This document shows, piece after piece, positions 10,077-54,122 of a stretch of 54,128 nucleotides of DNA. The notes below the pieces were generated by a model that worked only from the letters and a program-made list of their open reading frames with translations, had not been told where the DNA came from and searched no databases. Within the stretch, counting starts at the first letter, position 1. Each line of letters opens with the position of its first letter. A program made the translations under genes and the position numbers. This DNA is from Euglena gracilis (taxonomy: Eukaryota): assembly GCA_039621445.1 (NCBI GenBank), contig CP154954.1, positions 30,942,395 to 30,996,522 of the forward strand, given 5' to 3'.

Positions 10077-11262
10077 CTTTGTCTCCGACGTGGCGACCGT
10101 GGCGCTGTTTCTTTGCCTGGGGGGGTCCCCCCCCACCTCCCCCCCCCTGGCCCCCATCTTCTGATCGAGGGCGTTTGAAGACAAATTTTCTTATATGGGT
10201 GGGGGGGTCGGGCTCACAATGTCTTTGTGCTTCGCCCTCGGTGTCCCTTCCTCCCTTCTCGGTCTGCCTCGAGGGAGTGCGAGACACCTCGGGCGCCGCA
10301 CTTTGCCATTGTGAGGCCAGATTGTGCACTGAAAAAAGGGGGGCCAGGGCACTCTCCAAAGCACCTTGTGCACCAAGTCTTTGGTAATGGGCTGTGAAAG
10401 CCTCTACCCCCTTCCACTGACCAATTTCACAAACTTCTTGAGCAGAAAGGCCCATTTTTTTGAGTAAACCAACTCCTGCCCCTCTGGTGGAGTGGGGTCC
10501 CCAAACCTGGGGGGGTACCCCCTGCTGGGCCAAAAAGTGTTTGGTTATCGAAGCAATGGTATCTGCCTTAATGGCTTTATAGGGGGGTTTTAACGTAATC
10601 AGAAGGGGGCCCCCAGGTTTCACCAGGAAACGTGTTGCTGTCACATAAGACATCATCAAACGAAAGGGACTGATTTGGGGGCACTGGGGAATAGAGACAA
10701 CTCTCTCCCACTTATGGAGTTTTTGCCCTTTACGTTTAATTTTGATGTAGGGTGCCCCCCCCAACACACTGGTGGTTCTTTGGACCTGTGCCAAATCAGA
10801 ACTTCTGTATAAACAGAGGATGCGTGAACAGAAAATGAGTTGTGTACGTAATGTACACATATCAGAGGGCAGGGGGGACTGTGCCAGCCCCAGGAGGATT
10901 GGGAGGGGATCCCAGAATGCACCATATTTCTCCAGGTTTTGGTTCCAAAGCCTTTTATAAGGTGCCAACATGGCATGGAACTTCAGGCCACCAAAGCCAG
11001 GGATCAAAAGCATAGCACTGTATGCATTGCGTGCTTGGGCCTTTGAAAATTGGAACAGTTGAATTAAAGCGTCAACCACTTGGTCAGTGGTGGCTTCAGG
11101 GGGGGGTACCCCCATTTTGTCCAAAATTACCCATAAAAGCGTAAAAGCGCTTTGATAACGCTTTAAGCTGGGGTTTCTTCCCAGGAAATCGTTAATGGTT
11201 GTATTTTGTATTTGTTTCCCCTCCAGAATTTGCCTGAGCAAATCATGCAAAGCAGGGGCCAC
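10048..11262 (-). CDS. DIRS tyrosine recombinase
   Basis: Catalytic set R (LYRSSDL), K, HSTR, W (GQWK), Y (AHYQR). Confidence 0.92.
   Translation of the reverse strand: MAPALHDLLRQILEGKQIQNTTINDFLGRNPSLKRYQSAFTLLWVILDKMGVPPPEATTDQVVDALIQLFQFSKAQARNAYSAMLLIPGFGGLKFHAMLAPYKRLWNQNLEKYGAFWDPLPILLGLAQSPLPSDMCTLRTQLIFCSRILCLYRSSDLAQVQRTTSVLGGAPYIKIKRKGQKLHKWERVVSIPQCPQISPFRLMMSYVTATRFLVKPGGPLLITLKPPYKAIKADTIASITKHFLAQQGVPPQVWGPHSTRGAGVGLLKKMGLSAQEVCEIGQWKGVEAFTAHYQRLGAQGALESALAPLFSVHNLASQWQSAAPEVSRTPSRQTEKGGRDTEGEAQRHCEPDPPTHIRKFVFKRPRSEDGGQGGGGGGGPPQAKKQRHGRHVGDKAANSGEKRH
10213..10319. repeat. DIRS internal complementary region (ICR)
   Basis: 10213-10283 is the reverse complement of 9911-9981; 10283-10319 is the reverse complement of 14216-14252 (1 mismatch). 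Confidence 0.9.
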
Positions 11263-13958: not shown

Positions 13959-14002
13959 TGCTCATCGAAGTCGAAATTGAAATTTGACAATTGAATTCTC
14001 AA
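13124..14002 (-). CDS. Alternative-frame ORF at the DIRS gag position (function unknown)
   Basis: 292-aa open frame overlapping the 5' part of the RT ORF; contains a ~42-bp tandem duplication (13262-13343); no Gag motif recognised. Confidence 0.3.
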   Translation of the reverse strand: MRIQLSNFNFDFDEQCSGEEIGIIWPRTSWRRGSSWRPWRCGQHVANRGRSSHPAPLPRNFTAQTPPPVTATVLGPLWPGGPEDRSQPQPLVGKDWAMGAQNASQLDIQSPHIKGISPKGAQQPGHKLARRWGDGIKAKEVNTTGAMGASFTRKSPQEGAAKVCPTPPIHLSQQPLSRGQGGATAAPPDFQWGWRPRRNQGLEDHKMDYGKKFIHGNLGDQQGGPTVATKKLRNQQGGPTVATKKLRMLLEQSPEGPTVALCQQWGIKGPTMALSMTQHLQPSPPKIILSRK

Positions 14003-29829: not shown

Positions 29830-32800
29830 GGCCCCGGGCGGATTCCTGTGGGTGCTCATCCTGGGGGTGATGCCGACCTGGTCGGCCCGACCACCTGGTC
29901 GGCCCGACCATGGTCGGGCCGACCAGGTCGATAACTACCCCTGGGGGTGATACCGACCAGGTCGGTATCACCCCCAGAAATCTGCATTACCCCCCCCCTC
30001 TTTGGAAATTAAACACCCCCCCCCCCCCCGGGTTTCCAAAAGACGAGATCAACATGGACCCGAAAAGGGGTTGGCAGATAAAAGGGGTTTATTTTGTTAA
30101 TGAAAGGGATAGGGTTAGGTCGACTTGCACCCGAAAAGGGGTTGGCAGATAAAAGGGGTTGGCAGATAAAAGGGGTTTATTTTGTTAATGAAAGGGATAG
30201 GGTTAGGTCGACTTGCACCCGAGAAGGGGTTGGCAGAAAAATGGGGTTTATTTTGTTAATGAAAGGGATAGGGTTAGGTCGACTTGCACCCGAAAAGGGG
30301 TTGGCAGATAAAAGGGGTTGGCAGATAAAAGGGGTTTATTTTGTTAATGAAAGGGATAGGGTTAGGTCGACTTGCACCCGAGAAGGGGTTGGCAGATAAA
30401 AGGGGTTGGCAGATAAAAGGGGATTATTTTGTTAATGAAAGGGATAGGATTAGGTCGACTTGCACCAGAGAAGGGGTTGGCGGATAAAAGGGGTTTATTT
30501 TGTTAATGAAAGGGATAGGGTTAGGTCGACTTGCACCCGAAAAGGGGTTGGCAGATAAAAGGGGTTGGCAGATAAAAGGGGATTATTTTGTTAATGAAAG
30601 GGATAGGATTAGGTCGACTTGCACCCGAGAAGGGGTTGGCGGATAAAAGGGGTTTATTTTGTTAATGAAAGGGATAGGGTTAGGTCGACTTGCACCCGAA
30701 AAGGGGTTGGCAGATAAAAGGGGTTTATTTTGTTAATGAAAGGGATAGGGTTAGGTCGACTTGCACCCGAGAAGGGGTTGGCAGATAAAAGGGGTTTATT
30801 TTGTTAATGAAAGGGATAGGGTTAGGTCGACTTGCACCCGAAAAGGGGTTGGTAGATAAAAGGGGTTGGCAGATAAAAGGGGTTTATTTTGTTAATGAAA
30901 GGGATAGGGTTAGGTCGACTTGCACCCGAGAAGGGGTTGGCAGATAAAAGGGGACAAAAGGGGATTATTTTGTTAATGAAAGGGATAGGATTAGGTCGAC
31001 TTGCACCCGAGAAGGGGTTGGCGGATAAAAGGGGTTTAGGGGTTTATTTTGTTAATGAAAGGGATAGGGTTAGGTCGACTTGCACCCGAAAAGGGGTTGG
31101 CAGATAAAAGGGGTTGGCAGATAAAAGGGGTTGATTTTGTTAATGAAAGGGATAGGGTTAGGTCGACTTGCACCCGAAAAGGGGTTGGCAGATAAAGGGG
31201 TTTATTTTGTTAATGAAAGGGATAGGGTTAGGTCGACTTGCACCCGAAAAGGGGTTGGCAGATAAAAGGGGTTGGCAGATAAAAGGGGTTGATTTTGTTA
31301 ATGAAAGGGATAGGGTTAGGTCGACTTGCACCCGAAAAGGGGTTGGCAGATAAAAGGGGTTTATTTTGTTAATGAAAGGGATAGGGTTAGGTCGACTTGC
31401 ACCCGAAAAGGGGTTGGCAGATAAAAGGGGTTGGCAGATAAAAGGGGTTGATTTTGTTAATGAAAGGGATAGGGTTAGGTCGACTTGCACCCGAAAAGGG
31501 GTTGGCAGATAAAAGGGGTTTATTTTGTTAATGAAAGGGATAGGGTTAGGTCGACTTGCACCCGAAAAGGGGTTGGCAGATAAAAGGGGTTGGCAGATAA
31601 AAGGGGTTGATTTTGTTAATGAAAGGGATAGGGTTAGGTCGACTTGCACCCGAAAAGGGGTTGGCAGATAAAAGGGGTTTATTTTGTTAATGAAAGGGAT
31701 AGGGTTAGGTCGACTTGCACCCGAAAAGGGGTTGGCAGATAAAAGGGGTTGGCAGATAAAAGGGGTTGATTTTGTTAATGAAAGGGATAGGGTTAGGTCG
31801 ACTTGCACCCGAAAAGGGGTTGGCAGATAAAAGGGGTTTATTTTGTTAATGAAAGGGATAGGGTTAGGTCGACTTGCACCCGAAAAGGGGTTGGCAGATA
31901 AAAGGGGTTTATTTTGTTAATGAAAGGGATAGGGTTAGGTCGACTTGCACCCGAAAAGGGGTTGGTAGATAAAAGGGGTTGGCAGATAAAAGGGGTTTAT
32001 TTTGTTAATGAAAGGGATAGGGTTAGGTCGACTTGCACCCGAGAAGGGGTTGGCAGATAAAAGGGGACAAAAGGGGAGTATTTTGTTAATGAAAGGGATA
32101 GGATTAGGTCGACTTGCACCCGAGAAGGGGTTGGCGGGTAAAAGGGGTTTATTTTGTTAATGAAAGGGATAGGGTTAGGTCGACTTGCACCCGAAAAGGG
32201 GTTGGCAGATAAAAGGGGTTGGCAGATAAAAGGGGTTGATTTTGTTAATGAAAGGGATAGGGTTAGGTCGACTTGCACCCGAAAAGGGGTTGGCAGATAA
32301 AAGGGGTTTATTTTGTTAATGAAAGGGATAGGGTTAGGTCGACTTGCACCCGAAAAGGGGTTGGCAGATAAAAGGGGTTGGCAGATAAAAGGGGTTGATT
32401 TTGTTAATGAAAGGGATAGGGTTAGGTCGACTTGCACCCGAAAAGGGGTTGGCAGATAAAAGGGGTTGGCAGATAAAAGGGGTTGATTTTGTTAATGAAA
32501 GGGATAGGGTTAGGTCGACTTGCACCCCAAAAGGGGTTGGCAGATAAAAGGGGTTTATTTTGTTAATGAAAGGGATAGGGTTAGGTCGACTTGCACCCGA
32601 AAAGGGGTTGGCAGATAAAAGGGGTTGGCAGATAAAAGGGGTTGATTTTGTTAATGAAAGGGATAGGGTTAGGTCGACTTGCACCCGAAAAGGGGTTGGC
32701 AGATAAAAGGGGTTTATTTTGTTAATGAAAGGGATAGGGTTAGGTCGACTTGCACCCGAAAAGGGGTTGGCAGATAAAAGGGGTTGGCAGATAAAAGGGG

Positions 32801-35575
32801 TTGATTTTGTTAATGAAAGGGATAGGGTTAGGTCGACTTGCACCCGAAAAGGGGTTGGCAGATAAAAGGGGTTTATTTTGTTAATGAAAGGGATAGGGTT
32901 AGGTCGACTTGCACCCGAAAAGGGGTTGGCAGATAAAAGGGGTTGGCAGATAAAAGGGGTTGATTTTGTTAATGAAAGGGATAGGGTTAGGTCGACTTGC
33001 ACCCGAAAAGGGGTTGGCAGATAAAAGGGGTTTATTTTGTTAATGAAAGGGATAGGGTTAGGTCGACTTGCACCCGAAAAGGGGTTGGCAGATAAAAGGG
33101 GTTGGCAGATAAAAGGGGTTGATTTTGTTAATGAAAGGGATAGGGTTAGGTCGACTTGCACCCGAAAAGGGGTTGGCAGATAAAAGGGGTTTATTTTGTT
33201 AATGAAAGGGATAGGGTTAGGTCGACTTGCACCCGAAAAGGGGTTGGCAGATAAAAGGGGTTGGCAGATAAAAGGGGTTGATTTTGTTAATGAAAGGGAT
33301 AGGGTTAGGTCGACTTGCACCCGAAAAGGGGTTGGCAGATAAAAGGGGTTGGCAGATAAAAGGGGTTGATTTTGTTAATGAAAGGGATAGGGTTAGGTCG
33401 ACTTGCACCCGAAAAGGGGTTGGCAGATAAAAGGGGTTGGCAGATAAAAGGGGTTGATTTTGTTAATGAAAGGGATAGGGTTAGGTCGACTTGCACCCGA
33501 AACGGGGTTGGCAGATAAAAGGGATTGGCAGATAAAGGGGTTGATTTTGTTAATGAAAGGGATAGGGTTACGTCGACTTGCACCCAAGAAGGGGTTGGAG
33601 GATAAAAGGGGTTTATTTTGTTAATGAAAGGGATAGGGTTAGGTCGACTTGCACCCGAAAAGGGGTTGGCAGATAAAAGGGGTTGGCAGATAAAAGGGGT
33701 TGATTTTGTTAATGAAAGGGATAGGGTTAGGTCGACTTGCACCCGAAAAAGGGGTTGGCAGATAAAAGGGGTTGGCAGATAAAAGGGGTTGATTTTGTTA
33801 ATGAAAGGGATAGGGTTAGGTCGACTTGCACCCGAAAAGGGGTTGGCAGATAAAAGGGGTTGGCAGATAAAAGGGGTTGATTTTGTTAATGAAAGGGATA
33901 GGGTTAGGTCGACTTGCACCCGAAAAGGGGTTGGCAGATAAAAGGGGTTGGCAGATAAAAGGGGTTTATTTTGTTAATGAAAGGGATAGGGTTAGGTCGA
34001 CTTGCACCCGAAAAGGGGTTGGCAGATAAAAGGGGTTTATTTTGTTAATGAAAGGGATAGGGTTAGGTCGACTTGCACCCGAAAAGGGGTTGGCAGATAA
34101 AAGGGGTTGGCAGATAAAAGGGGTTGATTTTGTTAATGAAAGGGATAGGGTTAGGTCGACTTGCACCCGAAAAGGGGTTGGCAGATAAAAGGGGTTGGCA
34201 GATAAAAGGGGTTGATTTTGTTAATGAAAGGGATAGGGTTAGGTCGACTTGCACCCGAAAAGGGGTTGGCAGATAAAAGGGGTTGGCAGATAAAAGGGGT
34301 TGATTTTGTTAATGAAAGGGATAGGGTTAGGTCGACTTGCACCCGAAAAGGGGTTGGCAGATAAAAGGGGTTGGCAGATAAAAGGGGTTGATTTTGTTAA
34401 TGAAAGGGATAGGGTTAGGTCGACTTGCACCCGAAAAGGGGTTGGCAGATAAAAGGGGTTTATTTTGTTAATGAAAGGGATAGGGTTAGGTCGACTTGCA
34501 CCCGAAAAGGGGTTGGCAGATAAAAGGGGTTGGCAGATAAAAGGGGTTGATTTTGTTAATGAAAGGGATAGGGTTAGGTCGACTTGCACCCGAAAAGGGG
34601 TTGGCAGATAAAAGGGGTTGGCAGATAAAAGGGGTTGATTTTGTTAATGAAAGGGATAGGGTTAGGTCGACTTGCACCCGAAAAGGGGTTGGCAGATAAA
34701 AGGGGTTGGCAGATAAAAGGGGTTGATTTTGTTAATGAAAGGGATAGGGTTAGGTCGACTTGCACCCGAAAAGGGGTTGGCAGATAAAAGGGGTTTATTT
34801 TGTTAATGAAAGGGATAGGGTTAGGTCGACTTGCACCCGAAAAGGGGTTGGCAGCTTTAAAAGGGGTTGCAGATAAAAGGGGTTTATTTGTTGTTAATGG
34901 AAAGGGATAGGGGTTAGGTCGACTGCCACCCGAAAAAGGGGTGGTTGGCAGAATAAAAGGAGTGTTAATTTGTTAATGAAAGGGATAGGGTTAGGTCGAC
35001 TTGCACCCGAAAAGGGGTTGGCAGATAAAAGGGGTTGGCAGATAAAAGGGGTTGATTTTGTTAATGAAAGGGATAGGGTTAGGTCGACTTGCACCCGAGA
35101 AGGGGTTGGCAGATAAAAGGGGTTTAATGTGACCCCCCCCTATTTGTCACCCCCCCCTAATAGTCGCCCCCCCCTTGGGGGGCGACAATTAGGGGGGGTT
35201 ACCCATGGACCCATGGAAATGTGGGGTAAATTGAGTAACGCCCCCCTAATTGTCACCCCCCCCCCCCCTAATAGTCGCCAGGGGGGTCAAAACACTCCCG
35301 AGGGGGTGCCATATAGGGTGGGGGGTCACGTTATTAAATTTTTTAATTAAATTTTTACCTTAATTAACAATTGACCTATTCAAACGAAGGGGGGGGGGGC
35401 TTAAATTTCCAAAAGGTGGGGGGGGTAATGCGGATTTCTGGGGGTCGGGCCGACCAGGTCGGCATCACCCCCAGAGGTCGGTATCCCACCAACAGGGGTC
35501 GGGCCGACCACAGGTCGGGCCGACCAGGTCGGCATCACCCCCAGGATGAGCGCCCACAGGAATCCGCACGGAGCC
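29830..35575. mobile_element. Mutator-like foldback element carrying a satellite array
   Basis: ~190-bp imperfect TIRs (GGCCCCGGGCGGATTCCTGTGGG.../...CCCACAGGAATCCGCACGGAGCC); 9-bp TSD CGGCCTGCC at 29821-29829 and 35576-35584; empty site at ~25672. Confidence 0.85.
30058..35126. repeat. Satellite, 71-bp and 88-bp units, roughly 60-65 copies
   Basis: Unit CCCGAAAAGGGG(TTGGCAGATAAAAGGGG)1-2 TTKATTTTGTTAATGAAAGGGATAGGGTTAGGTCGACTTGCA; no unique spacers. Confidence 0.97.
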
Positions 35576-43980: not shown

Positions 43981-44469
43981 TTTACCGGGCCAGCCACCCC
44001 CGGGCTGCCGGTCGCCCCCGCGACCGCCGAGTCCCTTCGGGCCGAGGGCCCCGGGGGGTCCTCGCCGGTGGGGAGGACCACCGACAGGGGGGGTGGTGTT
44101 TCCGGGGTGGGGCCTGCGCTTTCTCCGGGGGTTGGTGGGCTCAAGTCAAACCCCTTTTTTTCACCCAGGTGGTTTCCCCAACCCCAGCCGGTGCGTAGGA
44201 TCGTTTTTTGAACGGTTTCCGAAAATTTGGTGAAAACTTAAAAATCTGCCGTTTTGATTGCAAATCTCACTTCTCTCTCTCTCTCACTCACTCACTCTCA
44301 CACTCTCTTGCACACCTTGGAGACAAAACCAACCCACAAACCAACCCACTGAAACTTGAAACTCTTGAAGTCAAAACTGAAAGAAACTTGAATTCTGAAA
44401 CTCCGAGACTTGAGTGAGAACACACTTGAAACCGAAACTGTGAAATGTGAATGTATGAAATGTGCAAAC

Positions 44470-45345
44470 CTTCTTGGTCACTCGAAATGACCGAGGGAAC
44501 CCGAAAAGGCCTCCACTGATTTTTCACCATTTCCTTAGCCAACTTGGCACCGGTTAATCCCTTGTCCTTGCATGCAACCCCCACAATCCAACCCGAATGC
44601 CTATCCACACAAAGGGCTAGGGTGTCATACTCCCCCCCGTCGTGTAAAACCCTTGGCATTCGAAACAAATCGATGGCAACACTTGTCATTAGTGCAGGGG
44701 GTATGGGTGTGGACTCGATCGGTCGTTTCAAACTCTCCCCCCTCACACTCGCTTGGCATGTGGAACAATTTTTGCTGCAATTTTGGTTGAGTTGCTTTGC
44801 AGCCTTTTCATCAGCCCAAACAAAACGGATTGTCATGTGTTTCCAAACTTTTTCAGGGCCAACGTGCCCCAAAAACTCGTGATTTTCTTGAATCACAAAG
44901 GGTTGGAAACTTTCAGGCACACACAACTTTTCCTCGAAAAACAGTTGACCGTTCAAGACTTTATAGCTTTTGGGCCAAACTGAACCACCTTTGGTAGCCT
45001 CCCATTTTTCTTTCCATGTGGGGCATCGGGAATATGCTTCCCCCCAATCACGCTCCCATACGGGCATAATATCCTTAGGGGTCGTGCTTGGCAGGGCGTC
45101 CCCAACTTCCATACGAGTGTCCCCCCTCGAACTTTCAGCCGTCTCCGGGAAAGGGGTCGTCTCCCCCCCCACTTTCTCATCCCAAAAATGAACTCGTTTC
45201 TTTTCTTCCTGGGCCCTTGTGAGTGGGTGTCCACAGGGGTGTCTTTTCCTCCTGGGTCTACCCCACCCTCGGTTCCCCTCTTTGTGCACTCTCCTTTTTC
45301 CTCCTCAGGTGTTACGTTTTTGCCACTACGGGTTGTCACCCCCTG
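44470..45345 (-). pseudogene. Ty3/gypsy integrase fragment
   Basis: VTTRSGK linker; LCVP; HHCC finger (HEFLGH...CSTC); first D (VAIDLF), CVDRHSG, second D (ISSDQ); truncated before the E. Confidence 0.88.
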
Positions 45346-46149
45346 TGCGCGGTCCGAGGGTGCCCGCCCCAAGGAGGGGGCCCAAAGGGGCCACGAAGGG
45401 CCGCGAGGGGGATCCAAGGCCCCCAAGGGCCTTTTGAGGCCCCACTGGCCCCCAAGGGGGCCCCACAGCCCATTTTGACCAAGCCAAGGGAAGGTAAAGG
45501 AGGGGGCAGGTTGAGGGGGCCAACAGGCAACCCCCAAGGGGATGCGCAAGCCCTGCTGGGCTTTGCGCAAGCATGCGCACCCCCTTGGTGGGCGCTCAGA
45601 TGGCGCAATTCATTATGAATTGCGCAAAGTATACCAAGTAGCCCCCCCAGCTGTAGCCACCCTCCAATTGTACATTTTCTGTTCACAGGGCTCTGTTCAC
45701 ATACTGTCATTTGTGTTCACCAATTGTTTGCTTGCAAGGGAATTCAAGGACATATCAAGGAAATACAAATAACAAATTTCAAGTTCAAGTCTCATTGATC
45801 AAGAATTCAAGTTCATTTGTTGAGGCAAAAGTATGTCATTTTCAACGCCACCATCCTTGCCAACACCCACCCCCTACACAAACTGAACACTGCCAGTCAA
45901 ACAACATGCCTACCAGCCACGTGGCGGCTGTCCGCCATGCCGGGATCAGGCATGGCATGTGCCTGCAGGAGATCATCAAGAAGGCGTGGACTGAAGGGGT
46001 GAACATCAACCTGATGGAGTATTATTCAAGTTTTGATGCAGATTGTGGCTGTTCGTGGTGTGCCAGTCGTGCAGCAGCAGCCGCTGCTGGCAGGCTCAGG
46101 GCCCATGGCAGGGTGGCCTCTGATGCCAGGCTGGTGGATGCTGTGGAAG

Positions 46150-46400
46150 GACATGTCAGAGACGGGAATGCCAAGGATGGAAATGCCAGAGATGCGAATG
46201 CCAAGGATGGAAATGCCAGAGACAGGAATGCCAAGGATGGAAATGCCAGAGATGGACATTCCAGACATGCAGATGGGCGAGATGGACATTCCAGACATGG
46301 AGATGGGCGAGATGGACATTCCAGCCATGGAGATGGGCGAGATGGGCATTCCAGACATGGAGATGGTCGAGGTGGACATTCGGGAGATGGTGATGACGGA
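46150..46400. repeat. 15/30-bp tandem repeats (ATGCCAAGGATGGAAATGCCAGAG; GAGATGGACATTCCAGACATG)
   Basis: Frame-preserving periodic units. Confidence 0.8.
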
Positions 46401-46509
46401 AGTTGGCATTGGGCCCCAGTGGGGCATGGCGAGGGCGGAGGCTCGCCGGGGAAGTCAAGAGGAAGGAGAAGGAAGGAGCGCCGACAGAAGGCGAAGGAGG
46501 CCCCGAGGG

Positions 46510-46730
46510 GCTGAGGCTGAAGCCCTGCCTGGGATGATGTGGGCTGGGTCCCCCTCCCGCATGCCCTGGGCCGAAGCCCTCACCAGCTGTGGCCGAAGCC
46601 CGCCGGGATGGTGTGGGCTGGGTCCCCCTCCCGTGTGCCTGGGCCGAAGCCCTCAGGCGTTGTGGCCGAAGCCCGCCGGGACGGCGTGGGCTGGGCCCCC
46701 CTCCCAGGCCTGTGGCCGAAGCCCTCCCCG
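46510..46730. repeat. ~75-bp GC-rich tandem repeat x3 (GGCCGAAGCCC / GTGGGCTGGG)
   Basis: Visible periodicity. Confidence 0.7.
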
Positions 46731-46952
46731 CGGTAACCCTCTCCCGCTGCACCTGCGAGCCCCCTCCCCAGGACCCCCACCAGCCCCTGGACCCCCATCT
46801 CTGGACGGGCAAACAAGGGCAAAAAAGAGGGGAAAAACGAGAAAAAAATTCCAGAGATGACGGCCCAAGGGGTATCTTTGGGCTGTTCTGGGGGGAAACC
46901 CCTGCCAGAACGGCCCAAGGCGGTGCGGGTGCCTGCTGCTCCCCCCTGCTGC

Positions 46953-47613
46953 TGTAGGAGACCGACCCCCCTAAGGGTCGGCCTTCGACCCCCGCCCCGC
47001 CCCACAGAGAAAAAAAAATAAAACAGACAGACAGAAAGAAAGATTAAAGATTGTGTTCGTGAACGAAAAAAAAAAAAAACCTCAGCGCCTTTTTGCCGAA
47101 GGCAGGTTTAGCTGCCCGGGGCAGCTTTTTAAGGAGGGGAGTGTGGGCGCTGGGAAAGCGATTAAGATTCCAGCAGGGGAATTAGGAATTACACAAAATT
47201 CTGTCTGTGTTTGTGTTTACAGTGGCAAGCAGCATGTTCAGTTTGACTTTGGTAGTTCAGTTCTGGGAAGTTTATTGATTTGTGCCAGCGCTGGGATTTG
47301 GGAAGTGGGATTACAATGAAAAGTTCCAAGGAAAGTCCCAGGTGGGTGCCAGGCCCCCTGGGTGAATTGATGGATCCCAGCCAGTGGCAGGGCCTGCAGG
47401 CGCCAAGGTCCAGCCGCCAGGGGGTTGTGGGAGTGGTGAGGCCCACACCCCTTCAACGCCACCATCCTTGCCAACACCCACCCCTACCCCACTTTTCCTC
47501 CAAGGGGAAAACCCCCACCAGGTGGGCCCGATGGGCTCAAATTTAAACGATCCTACGCGGGTTGCGCCGCCAGGGGTCCCTTCACAGGGACCTCAGGAGG
47601 GGCAACCCCTACA
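46953..47613 (+). repeat. Putative 5' LTR (661 bp)
   Basis: TGTAGG...CCTACA termini immediately followed by the PBS. The partner LTR is not in the window, so the left edge is inferred. Confidence 0.7.
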
Positions 47614-50600
47614 TGGTAGCAGAGGAGGGTTTGAGCCCTCTGGGCTCACACTATGTGAGCCTGGGGAGCCACTCCCCAATTATGAATCACAGGAGGAGGA
47701 CGAGGACGAAGCAAGCCACAGCCATGACAGCCCCAGCAATTACGGCCAGGCCCAGCAGCTCCTGGCCATCGCCGGGCATGCCCAGCCGGACCCCCAGCAA
47801 CCTGAACCATCTGGGTGGGGCATGGCATTGCCCAGCAGCCTGGGACTGCTCTCCGGCATGCCCAGCTTGGTCATGCCAGGGTTTGTGCATGACATGACCA
47901 GGCAGGTCATGTGGCAATTTGCAATGCGAGGGAAGATCAAAGAAGAAGAGGAAGAACCAGCAGAAGAAGAAGACGAAGAAGAATTTGCAAGCCATGCCCA
48001 GCCCCTTCTATTGGAGGCGGGGCCCTGGCAGAACCCTGGGGATGCCGGGCCGGCACATGCGCCGGTGGGCCATGTCGGGTCTGGGCATTTCCCAGCCGGA
48101 CCAGACCATTGCTCGCTGGTGCATGCCGGTCCCGGGCATGATGGGCCCCAAGGACATGCCCCAGACCCAGCCACCCAGTGGCAGCTGCAGGAGCTGCCCC
48201 CAGCAGGGGATTTGATGGAGGACGAGGACCAGACAGCCCAGGGGGGGTTGGTGCCAGAACAGAGCGCGAAGGGGAGGCACCCCGCGCACCCCGCACAGAG
48301 GCTGTGGGAGGAGGCGGAGGCACAGGCCGCTGCCTCGGTGGTTCTGGGGCAGGAGATCCAGCGGTTGGACGGTTGGGTTGGCGACCTGCAAAGTCGGCTT
48401 GCTGAAGCGGGGGCCACCACAGCTGCTTCAGTTAGCCGCCTGGAGCAGTTGGTGTCCCTGCAGTTTCAGCGGGTCACGGAAAACTTTCAAGGAGTGGTGG
48501 AGCAAATGGAAAGAACCCAGGCTGGGCTAGCGTCCCAGCTGGCTGAAAATTTTCAAAGGCTGCAGCAGGGGCAAAGGGAAAATTTTGCTGGGGGAATGAC
48601 AGCCCTCAGCGAGCTGGTGACCAGCCGGCTGAGCGAAGGCCTCGGGACGGTGGCCCAACTAGCCCAGCGGGTCCAGGGGCTCGAGGCCATCGCCAGCCGG
48701 GGTCACCAGCCAGCTGAAGGGCAGGGGTTTAACGAGGCGATGGCTGGGCGGGTTAAAAATTTTGAGGAGCTGCTCATCACCTCCGTCCGGACAACGGAGG
48801 AGGTGATGAGGAGCCAGGAGCTGGCCAGCGGGCGGCAGCAGGCCCAGGCCGAGGCCCTGGACCAAAAATTAAACCAGCTGACGGGTGAACTCGGGGGGCT
48901 GCGAGAAAGAAATGCAGGGATTGCACAGGCCCTGCAAAATTTTCGAGCAGAGCTGGATGGACAGGCCACAGCCATCGCTGAACAACAAGGGACCATAAGG
49001 GAAGACATAAGGGAGCTAAGGGCCAGGGCTGAGGGGCAGGGCCACAGCCTGCATGAGCTGTGGGCCGAGGTCACCACCCACGGGCAGGTGATCCAGGCCC
49101 ACAACGCCCTGCTCATGGAGGTGGACTCAACAATAAGGGGGACACCAAAAGAAAACGCCGAAATAAAAAATCGGCTCTTCGTTCTGGAAAACGAAATCGA
49201 GAATTTTGGAAAATTTTGCCCCCCCCATCCAGGAGCTACCAGGGCCACCCAGAGGAGCGGGGCCGGAGAGCGAGGACCCCCGAGGCCCTGAAGCCAGAGT
49301 GCCCCCGGCAACCACAGACCCCCAGACACAGACCATGCCGGGGGCCCAGATGTCCAATGGCTCGGGTGCCGCGGGGGGCAATATGCCTCCTGGCCCCCAG
49401 CAACAGCTACCAGCCCATCCCAGTCTGTTGGGAGGCAAGGGGCCTGTGGCCCCCCAGGGGCTCTCTGCTGGCCCCAGCAGCCGGGCAGCGGAGACAGCAG
49501 CCCAAACACCCGGGGAAGTGGTATCCCCGGGCCCAGCTTCTGTGACTGCAGTTTTTCCCAGTGGGTTCTCGGGTTCTGGCCCCCAGAGGGGCAGGAGTGT
49601 TGTCCCTGGTTCTTCGGCAGAGGGGAATGCAGCACCCCCAGCCAGCGGGGGCCCTTCGGCACCAAGGGGCAGCCAGCCCCAGGGTCCCATGGCTGCGGGG
49701 GGCAGCCAGCCCCAGGGCCCCATGGCTGCGGGGGGCAGCCAGCCCCAGGGTCCCATGGCTGCGGGGGGCAGTCCGGTCCAGGTCCCCGCTGCTGGAGGGA
49801 CCCCAGCTGCCCAAACACCTGGCACGTTCGGGTTCCAGGGGGTGGATTGGGAGGAAGCGGAACGCCAGATTAAGGCTCACGGATTTTTTAATTTTTTGGC
49901 CAGGTTGGGAGCCCAGGAGCAGCAGCAACAGTCTCAGCAAAATTCACGAACAACGGGACAGTCCAGCACAGCGAAACCACAGGCAGCAGGCACAGCAGAT
50001 CTACAGGGCCAGGGCAGGGGTCAACCAGGGGTGAAAGCAGCCGAGCACCAGTGGCCCCCCCAGCCCCGTGGGTTCCCCGCAGGAGGGGAGTTCACGGGGG
50101 CAATGGACCCTTTCGCCTGGGCCCCTGAGGCTGGGGCAGCATCGTGCAGCGCTGCCCCTCTGGCCTTTGGGTCCCAGGACACGGGAGCCTGGGTCCGGGG
50201 GGTCCAGGCAGCTCCGGTCCACGTGGCGCCAGCAGCCCCCAGCCCAGCAGCCAGCATGTTTTTGGGGCCGCTGGCGACACTCCTCACCAAAGACCTTGTA
50301 AAACCAGAGCTGAAAGGGGATTTTCATGATTTTTCAGTAAAATTTCAGCTTTACATGCAGCAGGTTTCCATGGGACAGCCAGTGGGGGAGGAATTTAAAA
50401 TGCTTGTTCTGACCGGCTGCCTGGACCACAGCAGCCGGCTGGAACTCCAGCGGCGACAGGAGATGGGGGAACGGGTCAGGTTCCAGGATTTCTGGAACTG
50501 GCTGGCCCAGAAATACGGCGGTGACATCCAGGCCTCGCTGCATGAGCAGCTCAGGGCCCTCAGGCCGGCAAACGGGCAAATTAACCCTCCCAGCGTGGCG

Positions 50601-51597
50601 TGAATATGAAAGTCAGTTTAAATTAATTTTCTGCCGGATGGAAAACCCCTCTGAGGAGGAAGCACAGGCCCTGGTTTTGCAACAGCTCCCAGATTCCATG
50701 CGAAGGGCCATAATCAGGGAACAGACACGAAAAAATCAGGATGCGCCCACAGTGCGGCTGTGGCACATCCCTGGGTTGACGGTGGAAAAGGCAACACAAC
50801 TCGCCCAGGAGGCTGTGGGGGAAGGGGAGCCGGTGACAGTCAGGGCACACCGGGACTCCTTCCTCATCAAGCTCTACAGCCGGCGGGCGCTGGAGAGGCT
50901 GATGATGAGGAACGGGGCCACGCTGCAGGGGGGCAATACAGTGAAAATCACCCCCCACGAAACAAAGCTGGGACTGGAGGAGGTTTTTCGACATGCTGAA
51001 AATGAGCTGCGGTGCCAGGAACGGTCTGACAGCTATGGCCGTTCTTGGGGTGGACGGGGGGTCCCAGCCCACCAGGAGGACCACTGGGCTGGGGGCCTCG
51101 ACAATTTTTCAGTCTCTGAGGTAAAATCCCAGGAAGCCAGGCCAGCCCAGCCCCAGAAAACGGTTTCACAGCCAGCTGAGGGAGGAGCAAAGGCAGGACC
51201 CCCCAAAGGCCCTGAGGGGCCACAGGACAGGCAATCACGGCACCGGGGCGGGTCACCTGGAAAGGGACGGGAGGGACGCAGGTCACCCAGCCCGGGGCAA
51301 AAGGGAAAGGGGTTCGGCAAGGGGGCTGGCAAGGGCGGCCCGGATTTTCGCCCAGCCAGGTCCCCAACCCCTCACCCAGCCACCAACAGGGAACAAACCC
51401 CCCCGAGGAGCCCACGGAGTGGCCCCTCGGTGGACCAGCCCTGCAGCCAGTGCGGGGCCACAGATCACTGGTCTCGGGAATGCCCTGGAAAGAAGTGTTA
51501 TGATTGCGGGAAAACGGGACATCTGGCACGACAGTGCTGGTGGAGAAGGGGAAAGGGGAAGGGGACTTCCACGCCACCACGGCGGGGGAGTGCCTGA
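47531..51597 (+). CDS. gag: Very large Gag (~1300 aa) split by two +1 shifts (~49205, ~50577); start uncertain (47531 or 47822)
   Basis: Long coiled-coil region (48300-49200), capsid-like helices (FHDFSVKFQLY...FQDFWNWLAQKYG...WREYESQF...LPDSMRRAI), zinc knuckles CSQCGATDHWSREC (51442) and CYDCGKTGHLARQC (51496). Confidence 0.8.
47614..47632 (+). promoter_or_regulatory. Primer-binding site, initiator tRNA-Met
   Basis: TGGTAGCAGAGGAGGGTTT vs TGGTAGCAGAGGATGGTTT (complement of the AGCAGAG-type tRNAiMet 3' end), 18/19 match. Confidence 0.88.
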
Positions 51598-52027
51598 AAA
51601 TGCGGGGGCCAGAAGGGAGGGGACGGGGGCCCAGGGTGCCCCCAGCACGGCCCTCGGAAGGAGGGTGAGGAAAGGGTTCACGGAGAGGGTTGGGTTTTGG
51701 TCAAGGGAAGGTCCAAAGGCAGATCCGGACCTGGACCTGCACGGTCCCCCCAGCCCCCCCTGACTGAGACACGAAAAGGGGCTGGGGGGGGCCAGCAGGC
51801 CCTCCCATTCGACTCTGCCAACCCCTGGTCTGCGCTTTTCACCAGTGAGGGCAGTCCAGGGGGGGGCTCGGGTCAGAATTCAGGCACGGGACAAAAGGAG
51901 AAGGGACACAAGGCGGCTGGCCCTCCGCAGCAAGCCGCCCAGGGGTCTTCGGGTTCCAGCACACCCGGTCTACCGCAGATCACAACACCAGGAAGGGAGG
52001 GGAAAAACCCAACAAACAAAAAAATGA

Positions 52028-54108
52028 AAAAGAAAAAACAAAACGCTCTCACAGGCATCAATCAGGGAGGCAGCGAGGGAGGTCATCAACGTTCCCCAAA
52101 CCAGCAAGGGCACGGATGAAACCGCCCCCAGCACGGAAAGGGATTCAGGGTTTTCGATTCGCCAGGTGAGGTGCGTCAGGGCCGCACCTTCCACCTCAGC
52201 CCCCACACCACAGCCAGCCCCAGCACCACTCCCAGCCCGTTCCTCAGGGTTTGGGAGGTCGCCCTCCCGGTGGATCTCCCAGGACTACCACGTCCGGGAG
52301 GAGTACGTCAGGGACGTACTCCGCCGCCTGGGGGTCCAGCCGGAGGTCGACGCCTTTTCTGCCAAAGAAAACCGCAGGTTCGTCCGCTGGTGGGGGCCAG
52401 GGAGCAGGGAGGGAGAAGATGCCTTCAAGCAGGACTGGGGCAGGGAGGTTTTGTGGATCAACCCACCTTATAAAAAAATACAGGAGGTTCTCGAAAAAAT
52501 CAGGAGGGATCAGGCCCATGCCATCCTGGTGATCCCCAGGTGGCCAGGCCGGCGTTGGTACAGGGAGGCCAGGGGCTTGGCAGTGCGCCAAGTCACGTTC
52601 CCTCAGGGAACACGATTTTTCGGCAGAGGGGAGGAGTTGTGCCGGGGGACCAAGTGGCCCATCACAGCCTTTTTGCTGTGCGGGCACCCAGACCGGTGCA
52701 CGCTGGAGGAGGTGACACGAAGGGGGAGGGAGAAAAAAACCAGGTTCGGGACACATTTTTCAGGGCCACCCCCAGGGACCGGGGGGGCCACAGGGGAGGT
52801 CAAGCCGGCACACCTGGGGCAGGTGGGGAGAGCGGACCAGCCCAGGCGGATGCTGGACCTGTTCTGCGGGACAGGTTCAGTGGGGGACGTCTACCGCAGC
52901 CTGGGTTACCAGGTTACGTTGGTGGACGTGGTCCCCAGGTGGCGGCCAGACATTTGTGTTGACGTTCTGAAATGCAATTTTAAAAAACAGTTCCAGCCTG
53001 GGGATTTTGAGGTGGTGGTGTGCGGGGTCCCCTGCACCGAATTCAGCCTGGCCCTGACCACCAGGGAACGGGATTTAAAATTGGCTGATCGGCTGGTGCA
53101 GCGGGCCCTGGCGATCATCAGGTACCTCTGCCCACAGCGGTGGTGGCTGGAAAACCCCCGGTACGGGTACCTGCGGACCCGCAGGTACATGGCAGGGATC
53201 CCACACGTGGACGTGGATTACTGCCAGTATGCAGACTGGGGCTACCAGAAGCCCACCAGGATATGGGGCAGCCCCCATGTCCTGGGTCTCCGGCCACGGG
53301 TGTGTGACGGCCGGACCTGCACCAACCTGGAAAGCCCAGTACCTGAGGGGGGACGAAAGGGACGGCACAAAATTCGGCTCAGCAGCAAACACCAAAACCT
53401 GCCCAGGCACCTGAAATATCGGATCCCAGAGGCGCTCATCCGTGACCTGGCCACAGCACCGGCACCGGAGGCCCACGCTGCCGGGTCTCCGGAGCCAGAG
53501 CGGGACCCCCAGACAGAACGAGGGGTGCCCTCGGTCTTGCTCCGTGAGGTGGGGCAGGGTGCCAGTGAACGGCAGCTGCTGATGCGGGTGCAGGCCAGGG
53601 GGCCAGACGGACAGACCCACTTCATCAACGCCCTCATTGACACAGGGGCAGAGGTGAACCTGGTCCGAAGAGGCATGCTACCCAGCACATACCTCCTGCC
53701 TGCCCCCAAGCCCCTGTCCCTGGTGACGGCTAGTGGAGCCAATATGGAAGGGGGGGAACGTGAGGCAACCCTGGGCCTGGTCCTCCGGCAGGAGGGGGGC
53801 CTGGGTCAGGGGGAAGGGGCCCTGTGGACGGCCCCAGCCTCCTTCTATGAGGCAGAAATCCACGTGGAGGCCATCATCGGCTTTCCGTGGCTGGAAGAAA
53901 ACCAGCTCGGGGTGTTTCCACATCTCCGAGCCTTGGCATTGAGGGGAGAGCAGGTGGTCCTCCTTCGGGGACATGATGCGGAGGGTGAGCAAGTTCAGCC
54001 AGCAGCCCACAAAAAGGCACAAAAGCGAGTGAGATACCTGAAAATGGTGGAAAAAGTCAGAGCACTGCGGCTTGCTTTGCCAGAGGCGGCCCTGGGGGAG
54101 GACACCGA
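52028..54108 (+). CDS. pol: pol N-terminus: Dam-like N6-adenine MTase + C5-cytosine MTase + aspartic protease, open to the N gap
   Basis: Hand-translated with no stop from 52028 to 54108. Dam: QDY, VDAFSA (52349), DAFKQDW, WINPPY (52460), LVIPRW...WY. C5: MLDLFCGTG (52850), GVPCTEFS (53030), WLENP (53150), DYCQY..QKPTRIW, YRIPEALI. Protease: ALIDTGA (53639), AIIGFPWL. Confidence 0.92.
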
Positions 54109-54122
54109 NNNNNNNNNNNNNN
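54109..54122. other. Assembly gap
   Basis: 14 N bases. Confidence 1.

What the first reader, a model, noticed from the sequence alone, without database searches (positions are those of the whole stretch)
52028..54108. LTR retrotransposon polyprotein carrying both an adenine and a cytosine DNA methyltransferase upstream of the protease
Seen: one uninterrupted + frame, absent from the ORF track because it has no stop before the gap. It encodes (1) a Dam-like amino-MTase, ~52271-52680 (VDAFSAKEN, DAFKQDW, WINPPY, LVIPRWPGRRWY); (2) a compact ~200-aa C5-cytosine MTase, ~52850-53450 (motif I LDLFCGTG, catalytic PC in GVPCTEFS, ENP, QKPTRIW, terminal YRIP); (3) a retropepsin (LIDTGA...IIGFPWL). It lies downstream of an LTR, a tRNAiMet PBS and a CCHC Gag. 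Established: Dam-like domains are normal in DIRS elements after RNase H, and C5-MTases have been reported in retrotransposons of dinoflagellates and charophyte algae. Inference: I do not know of a protease-containing LTR element with both MTase classes in tandem between gag and PR, or one in a euglenid. The protease could release both enzymes in the particle to mark new cDNA or integration sites with 6mA (or 4mC) and 5mC, giving the element its own epigenetic system. Catalytic motifs look intact.
Basis: partly seen in the sequence, partly recalled or inferred. Interest (0 to 1): 0.93.

Follow-up and report, generated by a model that had tools for sequence, protein, structure and literature searches.

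The report
Retrotransposon carrying two DNA-methyltransferase-like domains
This is the front half of a jumping gene (an LTR retrotransposon) whose polyprotein carries an adenine-methyltransferase-like and a cytosine-methyltransferase domain ahead of its protease; it is real and striking, but a May 2026 preprint already describes this kind of element.

Summary
Window 52028-54108 (+) is one open frame of 693 codons that runs into the N gap. It encodes three domains in order:
- a DIRS/Dam-type N6-adenine-MTase-like domain with NPPY;
- a compact but complete C5-cytosine MTase core with motifs I, PC, ENP and QKPTR (M.HhaI Z 14.9, DNMT3A Z 14.4);
- a DTG retropepsin.

Upstream lie an LTR end (47613), a PBS and a long gag with two CCHC knuckles.

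It is not an assembly chimera. Independent contigs bridge the domain junctions, the family has very many copies, and relatives have the same order followed by RT-RNaseH, or other orders followed by RT-RNaseH-integrase-chromodomain. This copy is frame-broken and cut by the gap.

The novelty claim fails. bioRxiv 10.64898/2026.05.21.726589 (22 May 2026) names such elements "EpiLTRs" (DAM + DNMT + chromodomain) in Euglena gracilis and Cymbomonas.

Three points are absent from the parts of that preprint I could read:
- all six orders of DAM/DNMT/PR occur among relatives;
- the "Dam" fold is closest to the RNA cap m6Am enzyme PCIF1;
- the mini-DNMT has stand-alone relatives in virophage-like contigs.

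No activity of either enzyme is shown.

The parts
45652..45845 (+). candidate left part of the 5' LTR; the start at TGTAG is inferred
   Evidence: In other copies the letters before 47452 are those of window 45816-45845 (12 X1 and 2 X4 contigs). TGTAG at 45652 mirrors the LTR end CTACA (read). The start itself was not tested.
45846..47451 (+). 1606-bp stretch that other copies lack at this junction, bounded by an exact 33-nt duplication (45846-45878 = 47452-47484)
   Evidence: Its nature is unexplained. X1 depth over 47000-47451 is also very high.
47452..47613 (+). right part of the 5' LTR, ending ...CTACA
   Evidence: 35 X1 contigs leave the window sequence right after 47613 with unlike continuations (agreement 0.35), as expected for 3'/solo LTR copies next to different flanks.
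47614..47631 (+). primer-binding site TGGTAGCAGAGGAGGGTT
   Evidence: Read. It directly abuts the LTR end. The match to the 3' end of initiator tRNA-Met is recalled, not tested; no tRNA gene lies in the window.
47822..49291 (+). first open segment after the PBS (window frame 2), a coiled-coil-like gag N-terminal part
   Evidence: No Pfam family passes its cut-off. In other copies a 1-nt loss at 49219 joins it to the next segment.
49167..50603 (+). second gag segment (frame 0), low complexity
   Evidence: No Pfam hit. In other copies an AC inserted behind 50571 joins it to the CCHC segment (X4 depth 13 of 13; X1 7062 of 37361).
50413..51597 (+). gag segment with two CCHC zinc knuckles (51442-51483, 51496-51537), ending in TGA 51595-51597
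   Evidence: zf-CCHC E 5.9e-9, 2 stretches; coordinates.
51598..52119 (+). open segment in the gag frame after the TGA, overlapping the pol frame
   Evidence: In other copies a 2-nt loss at 52012 plus an A gained behind 52032 put it in frame with 52028 onward (X4 depth 12.7 of 12.7).
52028..54108 (+). open frame of the finding (693 codons), cut by the gap
52244..52714 (+). DIRS/Dam-type (PCIF1-like fold) N6-adenine-MTase-like domain; NPPY at 52460-52471
   Evidence: PF05869 E 3.7e-6. AF2 model pLDDT 88.5. PCIF1 Z 11.2, T4 Dam Z 8.1. N76-P77-P78 is invariant in 17 sequences; the residue after it is Y or F.
52838..53452 (+). compact C5-cytosine MTase domain: motif I 52853-52876, PC 53030-53035, ENP 53150-53158, QKPTR 53246-53260
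   Evidence: PF00145 in 16 of 17 relatives. DNMT1 profile hit 8.2e-5. Model pLDDT 88.0. Foldseek DNMT3A E 1.2e-8. M.HhaI Z 14.9 over model residues 10-224.
53588..53947 (+). retropepsin-like protease; DTG at 53639-53647, IIGFPWL at 53873-53893
   Evidence: RVP E 0.016, below the cut-off. D-T-G is invariant in 4 sequences. ESM-Atlas nearest clusters are all retropepsins, score 0.95. It stands before RT in relatives.
54109..54122 (.). assembly gap (14 N) that cuts the element before RT

Best explanation
The stretch is the 5' half of a Ty3/gypsy (chromovirus-type) LTR retrotransposon of the 'EpiLTR' kind. Its layout is LTR end, PBS, a long gag with two CCHC knuckles, then the start of pol. Pol carries, in order, a small DIRS/Dam-type adenine-N6-MTase-like domain, a compact but complete C5-cytosine DNA MTase core, and a retropepsin. 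RT, RNase H, integrase and (by analogy with relatives) a chromodomain would follow but lie behind the assembly gap.

This copy has frame breaks. Other copies of this very abundant family carry small indels that fuse gag and pol into one frame.

Inferred mechanism: both MTase modules are made as parts of the gag-pol polyprotein. Each is an independently folding cassette. After cleavage by the element's protease, or within the particle, they act on the element's own nucleic acids. The DNMT puts 5mC on new cDNA or on the integrated copy. The adenine module puts N6-methyl on DNA, on RNA:DNA intermediates or on RNA.

Shown here: domain identity, folds, motif integrity, conservation, contiguity and copy number. 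Not shown: any catalytic activity, the substrate, or processing by the protease.
For: - Open frame and motifs.
- DAM domain: PF05869 E 3.7e-6 in the window, 16 of 17 relatives hit it, and one relative (P0008) scores 31.7 bits against the 28.1 cut-off. The model has pLDDT 88.5 and a class-I MTase fold.
- DNMT domain: 16 of 17 relatives hit PF00145, four of nine scanned relatives are above the cut-off, and the profile hits DNMT1 at 8.2e-5 with motifs I, IV and VI aligned. The model (pLDDT 88.0) aligns end to end with M.HhaI (Z 14.9, 202 residues, chain 10-327) and DNMT3A (Z 14.4, chain 626-905).
- Retroelement context: zf-CCHC; LTR end and PBS. Relatives P0158 (DAM-DNMT-PR-RT-RH) and P0164, P0166, P0167, P0159 and P0171 (continuing through RT-RH-IN-chromo) are single open proteins.
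- Not a chimera: an independent run (X4) has one contig across 51487-52965 and one across 52970-53717. X1 gave 15260 laid contigs, of which 5737 were >=99% alike. 14 of 24 listed runs hold half or more of the sampled words.
- Selection: identity to P0002 / P0158 is DNMT 68/57%, DAM 56/46%, PR 46/45%; the linkers are 43-55% / 16-20% and the ends before DAM and after PR 13-26% / 25-34%, so the contrast with the linkers is clear for P0158 and weak for P0002, where the DAM-DNMT linker is as conserved as DAM.
- Literature: the preprint describes the same kind of element.
Against: - In the window copy itself all three Pfam scores are below the curated cut-offs.
- RT, RNase H, IN, the chromodomain and the 3' LTR are not in the window, so class membership rests on relatives at 42-58% identity.
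- This copy cannot make the polyprotein as it stands. It has four frame changes and an in-frame TGA, and most X1 depth shares these breaks (68-81% at the four places).
- RNA raw reads gave only 15 reads, 14 of them only partly on the stretch, so expression is not shown.
- The preprint found no 6mA gain in E. coli from eukaryotic DAMs.
- Iyer et al. 2016 regard DIRS1 MTase domains as probably inactive.
Confidence: 0.85

Rival explanations
1. The adenine module is not a DNA 'Dam'. It is a PCIF1/CAPAM-type domain that methylates RNA (the cap-adjacent A or another A of the element's own transcript, or the RNA strand of replication intermediates), or it only binds RNA or RNA polymerase II without catalysis. 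Only the DNMT would then be a DNA-modifying enzyme.
For: - The best solved-structure match is PCIF1: Foldseek 6irw E 2e-5; VIA-align 6irx Z 11.2, 148 of 166 residues, 2.8 Z units above the next row. T4 Dam scores 8.1 and E. coli Dam 8.0.
- The DIRS-type MTase in the same window hits both Dam (E 0.0078) and PCIF1_WW (E 0.014).
- Iyer, Zhang & Aravind 2016 (PMC4738411, passages read) place DIRS1 MTase domains in the PCIF1 clade and suggest they bind transcripts.
- The preprint's E. coli assay gave no 6mA.
Against: - At sequence-profile level the window domain hits Dam PF05869 (E 3.7e-6). PCIF1_WW did not appear at E<=1 for P0001 or at E<=0.01 for the 17 aligned domains.
- No solved PF05869 member turned up in the profile search, so the fold ranking may only reflect what has been solved.
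- N-P-P is invariant in 17 sequences and the next residue is Y or F, which argues against a merely structural role.
- The preprint reports more 6mA on DAM-LTR copies than on other LTRs.
Confidence: 0.3
2. The layout is new to science: a protease-containing LTR element with both MTase classes has not been described.
For: - The preprint's main text never mentions protease, gag, PCIF1 or virophage (0 occurrences each), so the exact order DAM-DNMT-PR is not stated in the text I could read.
- A search for Euglena + retrotransposon + methyltransferase + chromodomain found only that preprint.
Against: - The preprint explicitly describes LTR retrotransposons with DAM + DNMT + chromodomain in E. gracilis and C. 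tetramitiformis and names them EpiLTRs.
- Its Fig. 2B is said to show the domain architectures. Figures and supplements could not be seen.
Confidence: 0.08
3. The tandem MTases are an artefact: a mis-assembly, or nested insertions of unrelated elements that happen to keep one frame open.
For: - The window is a mosaic of transposons.
- The element abuts an assembly gap.
- The preprint itself warns of nested insertions and assembly artefacts in E. gracilis.
Against: - Contigs of an independent run bridge gag-DAM-DNMT (51487-52965) and DNMT-PR (52970-53717).
- Two independent relatives (P0002, P0158) have the same order in one open protein.
- 19 relatives carry all three modules without stops.
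- Domain order is clustered on the DNMT tree: the window with P0002, P0158 and P0165 at SH-aLRT 97.
Confidence: 0.02

Closest known systems
EpiLTRs of Euglena gracilis and Cymbomonas tetramitiformis (Fernandez-Moreno et al., bioRxiv 10.64898/2026.05.21.726589, 22 May 2026; outline, Results and Discussion read)
   Same: A Ty3/gypsy-like LTR retrotransposon whose polyprotein carries a DIRS-derived DAM domain and a DNMT. Relatives of the window element also end in a chromodomain. The window also holds DIRS-type DAM elements, as the preprint describes for Euglena.
   Different: The organism of the window is not known to me. The chromodomain, RT and IN are not in the window. The order DAM-DNMT-PR, the six permutations, the PCIF1-like fold and the virophage-type relatives of the DNMT are not in the preprint's main text. 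Its figures and supplements were not seen.
DIRS1-type retrotransposon MTase domain (Iyer, Zhang & Aravind 2016, PMC4738411, passages read)
   Same: A small NPP[YF] MTase-like domain embedded in a retroelement polyprotein. BLASTP of the window domain against the DIRS-like ORF of the same window gives 27% identity, E 5e-6, and against another Dam-like ORF 31%, E 7e-11.
   Different: In DIRS elements it follows RT/RNase H, and the element uses a tyrosine recombinase (window ORF 11166-13961). Here it precedes the protease of an integrase-type LTR element.
DNMT-carrying retrotransposons of dinoflagellates and charophytes (de Mendoza et al. 2018, PMC5890265; search listing and start of abstract only)
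   Same: A C5-MTase encoded inside a retrotransposon.
   Different: According to the preprint those are DNMT3-type or SymbioLINE DNMTs and a separate acquisition. They carry no adenine MTase.
PCIF1/CAPAM, the cap-specific m6Am RNA methyltransferase (PDB 6irw, 6irx)
   Same: Best structural match of the adenine module: Z 11.2, rmsd 3.9, 148 residues aligned. Both have an NPP[FY] catalytic motif.
   Different: 12% identity. No WW or helical domain. No PCIF1_WW profile hit for the window domain. RNA as substrate is not shown.
Small stand-alone C5-MTases of virophage / polinton-like-virus contigs and of phages
   Same: The same compact core of about 200 aa with the GYQKPTR motif, at 27-40% identity. 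L014's 236-aa ORF passes PF00145 at 26.1 bits. Phage records are annotated as DNA (cytosine) methyltransferase.
   Different: These are stand-alone genes in AT-rich dsDNA virus contigs, not part of a polyprotein. The direction of any transfer is unknown.

Membership tests
Ty3/gypsy (chromovirus-type) LTR retrotransposon | Long terminal repeats, TG...CA, at both ends | tested here: inconclusive
   The 5' LTR end at 47613 (...CA) is supported by 35 contigs that diverge there. The LTR start is only inferred, and the 3' LTR lies outside the window.
Ty3/gypsy (chromovirus-type) LTR retrotransposon | tRNA primer-binding site next to the 5' LTR | tested here: met
   TGGTAGCAGAGG begins at 47614, directly after the LTR end. 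That it fits initiator tRNA-Met is recalled, not tested.
Ty3/gypsy (chromovirus-type) LTR retrotransposon | Gag with CCHC zinc knuckle(s) | tested here: met
   zf-CCHC E 5.9e-9, two knuckles.
Ty3/gypsy (chromovirus-type) LTR retrotransposon | pol order PR-RT-RNaseH-IN, with a chromodomain at the IN end | not testable with these tools
   These parts lie behind the gap at 54109, and no genome is held. Relatives carry RVT_1, RT_RNaseH, rve and Chromo in that order.
EpiLTR (preprint definition: LTR element with DAM + DNMT + chromodomain) | DAM domain and DNMT domain in one LTR-element polyprotein | tested here: met
   Both lie in frame 52028-54108, downstream of the LTR, PBS and gag.
EpiLTR (preprint definition: LTR element with DAM + DNMT + chromodomain) | Chromodomain | not testable with these tools
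   It would lie beyond the gap. It is present by my domain map in P0159, P0164, P0166, P0167 and P0171. The precomputed Pfam lists show Chromo in the same five proteins, but both Dam and DNA_methylase only in P0159, P0164 and P0166.
Pfam PF05869 Dam (N6-adenine MTase) | Score at or above the gathering cut-off (28.1 bits) | tested here: not met
   The window domain scores 27.2 bits, E 3.7e-6. 16 of 17 relatives match, P0008 at 31.7 bits. Two other Dam-like ORFs of the window pass at 35.1 and 36.8 bits. I file it as 'Dam/DIRS-type, PCIF1-like fold', not as a proven Dam.
Pfam PF05869 Dam (N6-adenine MTase) | Catalytic (D/N)PP(Y/F/W) motif after strand 4 | tested here: met
   NPPY at 52460-52471. 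N76-P77-P78 is invariant in 17 sequences and the next residue is Y or F. In the model it follows strand 72-75.
C5-cytosine DNA methyltransferase (PF00145 / DNMT fold) | Score at or above the gathering cut-off (22 bits) | tested here: not met
   The window domain scores 17.1 bits, E 0.0038. Relatives pass: P0026 25.3, P0116 29.2, P0055 27.2, P0008 29.1 bits. 16 of 17 match.
C5-cytosine DNA methyltransferase (PF00145 / DNMT fold) | Motif I (FxGxG), motif IV (PC, catalytic Cys), motif VI (ENV-type Glu) | tested here: met
   LDLFCGTG, GVPCTEFS and LENP are present. P74, C75, E77, E114 and P116 are invariant in 17 sequences. They align to DNMT1's FSGCGG, PPCQGFS and LENVRN.
C5-cytosine DNA methyltransferase (PF00145 / DNMT fold) | Complete catalytic fold through motif X | tested here: met
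   Model residues 10-224 align to M.HhaI 10-327 (Z 14.9, rmsd 4.5, 202 aligned), and residues 3-217 to DNMT3A 626-905 (Z 14.4). Foldseek probability is 1.00. The target-recognition region is minimal; its Cys/His cluster was not examined.
Retropepsin (aspartic protease A2) | D-T/S-G active-site motif in a profile-recognised domain | tested here: inconclusive
   DTG is present and invariant in 4 sequences. RVP has E 0.016, below the cut-off. The PDB profile search gave only repeat-protein artefacts and Ddi1 at E 0.1. The Atlas feature search gave retropepsin clusters at 0.95.

The most novel reading that the evidence does not exclude
The two MTase modules are freely permutable, protease-flanked cassettes of different origin and different substrate. 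The 'Dam' module would be a PCIF1/CAPAM-type adenine-N6 enzyme acting on the element's RNA or on RNA:DNA replication intermediates rather than on dsDNA, which would explain the negative E. coli assays. The mini-DNMT would belong to a viral pool of small C5-MTases shared with virophages and polinton-like viruses. It would have been captured once and then shuffled with DAM and PR into all six possible orders.
Probability: 0.2. Interest if true: 0.75.

Novelty: already known. Interest (0 to 1): 0.45.

Why it matters
A retrotransposon that carries its own 5mC writer and an adenine-methyltransferase-like module could set the epigenetic state of its new copies instead of merely suffering host silencing. 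That idea is now in print as a preprint, so the window adds an instance rather than a discovery.

Tried and rejected
RT/RH/IN and the 3' LTR of this copy could therefore not be recovered.
- Rfam and tRNA scans of the window found nothing. There is no tRNA to test the PBS against and no marker of the organism.
- Self-BLAST of 45000-54108 against the window found no second copy or second LTR in the window.
- PDB sequence-profile search with the DAM alignment returned only a lectin at E 0.39.
- PDB profile search with the protease alignment (4 sequences) returned designed armadillo-repeat artefacts and Ddi1 at E 0.1.
- Earlier findings of this scan: three look-ups, all empty.
- The genome search on the records of L020 and L014: not held. 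I therefore had no cellular DNMT outgroups and could not test the preprint's 'sister to DNMT4' result.
- The 'near' homologue search with the DNMT domain gave 93 proteins, none with an informative name.
- Expression: the RNA raw-read run gave 15 reads, 14 of them only partly on the stretch. Runs X15-X19 are only guessed to be RNA.
- Host-gene domestication was considered and rejected because of the very high copy number, the LTR/PBS/gag context and the frame breaks.
- I did not build a frame-corrected sequence. The joining of frames in other copies is argued from indel positions and frame arithmetic only.
Full report
**1. The observation**

Window 52028-54108 (+) is open for 693 codons and runs straight into the only N run of the window, 54109-54122.

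Pfam on the whole frame gives three weak hits in the right order: Dam PF05869 (E 4.1e-5, residues 107-183), DNA_methylase PF00145 (E 0.028, residues 311-376) and RVP (E 0.093, residues 532-572). Scanned as single domains, the scores are Dam 27.2 bits (cut-off 28.1), DNA_methylase 17.1 bits (cut-off 22) and RVP E 0.016. Taken alone, then, the window copy is sub-threshold for all three families.

**2. Relatives settle the domain calls**

phmmer of the frame against 1.84 billion cluster representatives found 5609 proteins at E<=1e-3, 1754 at <=1e-10 and 204 at <=1e-30. The best is P0002, 58% identical, E 3e-193.

I aligned 16 mostly single-domain relatives to each MTase domain.
- In the DAM alignment (A1), N-P-P and 15 further positions are invariant, and the residue after N-P-P is Y or F.
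- In the DNMT alignment (A2), the invariant positions include P74-C75-x-E77 (motif IV), E114-x-P116 (motif VI) and K147-P148-T149.
- 16 of 17 A1 members hit PF05869 (best 9e-9) and 16 of 17 A2 members hit PF00145 (best 1.2e-8).
- Of nine longer relatives scanned, four pass the PF00145 cut-off and one passes the Dam cut-off.

**3. Folds**

*DNMT domain.*
- The AF2 model has pLDDT 88.0 and pTM 0.84.
- Foldseek matches DNMT3A/3B, DIM2 and M.HaeIII with E about 1e-8 and probability 1.00.
- In a second look it aligns end to end with M.HhaI (Z 14.9, rmsd 4.5, 202 residues, model 10-224 on chain 10-327) and with DNMT3A (Z 14.4, model 3-217 on 626-905, 22% identity).
- The A2 profile hits DNMT1 at E 8.2e-5, with motif I, PC and ENV aligned.
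- This is therefore a whole C5-MTase catalytic core in about 205 residues, with a minimal target-recognition insert.

*DAM domain.*
- The model has pLDDT 88.5 and is a class-I MTase fold.
- Its best solved match is not a DNA Dam. It is PCIF1/CAPAM, the cap-specific m6Am RNA methyltransferase (Foldseek E 2e-5; VIA-align Z 11.2, 148 of 166 residues).
- An RNA MTase follows at Z 8.4, T4 Dam at 8.1 and E. coli Dam at 8.0.
- The sequence profile of A1 finds nothing in the PDB, so no close family member appears to be solved, and the ranking must be read with that in mind.

*Protease.*
- It rests on an invariant DTG, the weak RVP hit, retropepsin clusters as nearest neighbours in the ESM Atlas (score 0.95) and its place before RT in relatives.
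- A PDB profile search was uninformative.

**4. What the element is**

*Upstream structure.*
- The gag segment 50413-51597 has two CCHC knuckles.
- When contigs of public runs were laid on 47000-54108, 35 contigs of run X1 left the window sequence exactly after 47613 with unlike continuations. That is what 3' or solo LTRs next to different flanks should do.
- The next bases are TGGTAGCAGAGG, a PBS. That it fits initiator tRNA-Met is my recollection, not a test.

*Copy number.*
- X1 laid 15260 contigs: 5737 at >=99%, 5735 at 95-99% and 3788 at 90-95% likeness.
- 14 of 24 listed runs, from several studies, hold at least half of the sampled words.

*Contiguity.*
- One contig of an independent run (X4) spans 51487-52965, covering gag end, DAM and DNMT start.
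- Another spans 52970-53717, covering DNMT and PR start.
- A third covers 53688-54108 and runs on beyond it.
- Mis-assembly is therefore excluded.

*State of this copy.* The open segments lie in window frames 2, 0, 1, 1 and 2, and a TGA stands at 51595-51597. Other copies carry four small indels, each inside the overlap of the two frames concerned. By frame arithmetic they fuse everything from 47822 to 54108 into one frame.

| Place | Change in other copies |
|---|---|
| 49219 | 1 nt lost |
| behind 50571 | AC gained |
| 52012 | 2 nt lost |
| behind 52032 | A gained |

- In X4 the last three changes take all the depth at their places. The loss at 49219 takes 12.1 of 18.6, and a further 6.46 of that depth shows a 1-nt loss at 49208 instead. 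In X1 the four changes take 19-32% of the depth.
- I could not see whether the TGA is shared: only 40 of 288 differences were listed.
- The 5' LTR is also odd. Other copies join window 45845 directly to 47452. The window has 1606 bp in between, bounded by an exact 33-nt duplication.
- The LTR start at 45652 (TGTAG, mirror of the end CTACA) is an inference.

**5. The missing 3' half, from relatives**

A search among longer proteins gave 22 polyproteins.
- P0158 (1443 aa, 42% identity over 87% of the query) reads DAM-DNMT-PR-RT-RNaseH, the window's order.
- Others continue through integrase and chromodomain.
- P0026 has RVT_1 6e-25, RT_RNaseH 9e-22, rve, Chromo 1.8e-6 and DNA_methylase above its cut-off.
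- This is a chromovirus-type Ty3/gypsy architecture.

I mapped seven domains on 177 relatives.
- 34 carry both DAM and DNMT.
- 19 carry DAM, DNMT and PR, and all six possible orders occur: DAM-PR-DNMT 5, DNMT-DAM-PR 4, PR-DNMT-DAM 3, PR-DAM-DNMT 3, DAM-DNMT-PR 2, DNMT-PR-DAM 2. In the polyproteins long enough to reach RT the three modules lie upstream of it, and none of the 14 proteins I checked holds a stop or an X.
- Two further proteins read RT-RH-DAM-IN-DNMT. This resembles the Cymbomonas layout described in the preprint.

Conservation argues that both MTases matter to the element. Identity of the window frame to two relatives by region:

| Region | vs P0002 | vs P0158 |
|---|---|---|
| DNMT | 68% | 57% |
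| DAM | 56% | 46% |
| PR | 46% | 45% |
| DAM-DNMT and DNMT-PR linkers | 43-55% | 16-20% |
| Ends before DAM and after PR | 13-26% | 25-34% |

The contrast between domains and linkers is clear for P0158 and weak for P0002, where the DAM-DNMT linker (55%) is as conserved as DAM itself.

**6. Literature**

A full-text search found bioRxiv 10.64898/2026.05.21.726589 (22 May 2026). I read its outline, Results and Discussion. It reports:
- DAM-carrying LTR retrotransposons in several eukaryotes;
- 'EpiLTRs' in Euglena gracilis and Cymbomonas tetramitiformis that combine DAM, DNMT and a chromodomain;
- a DNMT clade sister to DNMT4;
- more 6mA on DAM-LTR copies;
- low or undetectable LTR expression in E. 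gracilis.

Its main text has no occurrence of 'protease', 'gag', 'PCIF1' or 'virophage'. Figures are not held and supplements are closed, so the drawn architectures may well show the order found here.

Iyer, Zhang & Aravind 2016 (PMC4738411, passages read) place the DIRS1 MTase domain in the PCIF1 clade and consider DIRS1 copies probably inactive. My fold result agrees with the PCIF1 affinity. The invariant NPP motif argues against inactivity in this lineage.

De Mendoza et al. 2018 (PMC5890265) was seen only as a search listing with the start of its abstract.

I could not establish the organism. No genome is held and run labels are coded. The window's mix of DIRS-type DAM elements and a DAM+DNMT LTR element fits the preprint's description of Euglena.

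**7. Side result on the DNMT**

A metagenome scan with A2 returned 36 loci.
- Seven (GC 0.50-0.56, 43-49% identity) are of the retroelement type or sit on short contigs. L002, for example, reads DNMT-PR-RT-RH.
- Twenty-nine (GC 0.23-0.38, 27-40% identity) gave no PR, RT, RH, IN, chromo or DAM hit. The five longest that I checked (L008, L013, L014, L020, L033) are densely coding.
- L020 encodes a Sputnik-type virophage major capsid protein (E 4e-86) and the minor capsid protein.
- L013, L015, L016 and L021 share genes with L020.
- L014, L015, L022, L032 and L033 have D5-type primase-helicases. L019 has a weak hit.
- In all, at least 10 of the 29 carry such a marker. The rest were not classified.
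- Phage genomes also hold 23-31% identical genes annotated as DNA (cytosine) methyltransferases, in 10 records.

I built a quick tree (77 rows, 253 columns, SH-aLRT only, rooted on three phage rows). 113 of the 188 domain-bearing rows were left out as context-less fragments, and L037 was left out because its gene is split.
- 33 of 35 retroelement rows, including the window, fall in one clade (support 99).
- The virophage-type rows form a neighbouring clade (support 90).
- Both are separated from the phage rows by a starred branch.
- Domain order is clustered within the retroelement clade: the window groups with P0002, P0158 and P0165 at 97.
- No cellular DNMTs were available, so this neither confirms nor contradicts 'sister to DNMT4', and it gives no direction of transfer.

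**8. Verdict**

The feature is real, well supported and biologically striking. It is an instance of a kind described six months before the library's cut-off. Catalysis, substrate and proteolytic release remain inference.

Noticed in passing
window 10051-13961 (-): A DIRS-like element. ORF 11166-13961 has RVT_1 (E 1.8e-21) followed by a C-terminal MTase-like domain that weakly hits both Dam (0.0078) and PCIF1_WW (0.014). The adjacent ORF 10051-11286 looks like a tyrosine recombinase by eye but has no Pfam hit. CpG observed/expected over it is 0.20.
   Followed up: partly
window 4306-5667 (-) and 6238-6747 (-): Two further Dam-like domains (IIDAF..., VNPPF) pass the Pfam Dam cut-off at 35.1 and 36.8 bits. 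The first is 31% identical to the LTR element's DAM, E 7e-11. The window therefore holds four Dam-like domains.
   Followed up: partly
window 44291-45304 (-): An integrase fragment (Integrase_H2C2 E 8.6e-6) lies on the opposite strand, directly upstream of the element. It resembles the integrases of the relatives by eye, which suggests the element sits inside another chromovirus-like copy.
   Followed up: no
window 45846-47451: A 1606-bp stretch inside the presumed 5' LTR that other copies skip. It is bounded by an exact 33-nt duplication, contains short tandem repeats and an A-rich run, and is itself at very high depth in run X1 over 47000-47451. Unexplained.
   Followed up: partly
window 29900-35000: A large tandem array with periods of 71, 88 and 17 nt, 74-76 copies by the repeat finder. 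Not examined.
   Followed up: no
L020 6447-7226; L014 9995-10705; 29 loci L008-L036: Stand-alone compact C5-MTases related to the retroelement DNMT sit in virophage-type contigs (Sputnik-like MCP in L020) and in contigs with D5-type primase-helicases.
   Followed up: partly
P0116 and P0008 (NCBI EPS61993.1, EPS62093.1): Two relatives with gag/DAM-PR-DNMT layouts are filed as hypothetical proteins of the carnivorous plant Genlisea aurea, on contigs of 3460 and 2531 nt. They may come from organisms living in its traps rather than from the plant. This is my inference and was not tested.
   Followed up: no
window 47614-54108 versus 1-45000: CpG observed/expected is 0.46 in the element against 0.63 in the rest of the window. 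This is in line with a genome in which CpG methylation is common, as the preprint reports for E. gracilis, but it is not a test.
   Followed up: no
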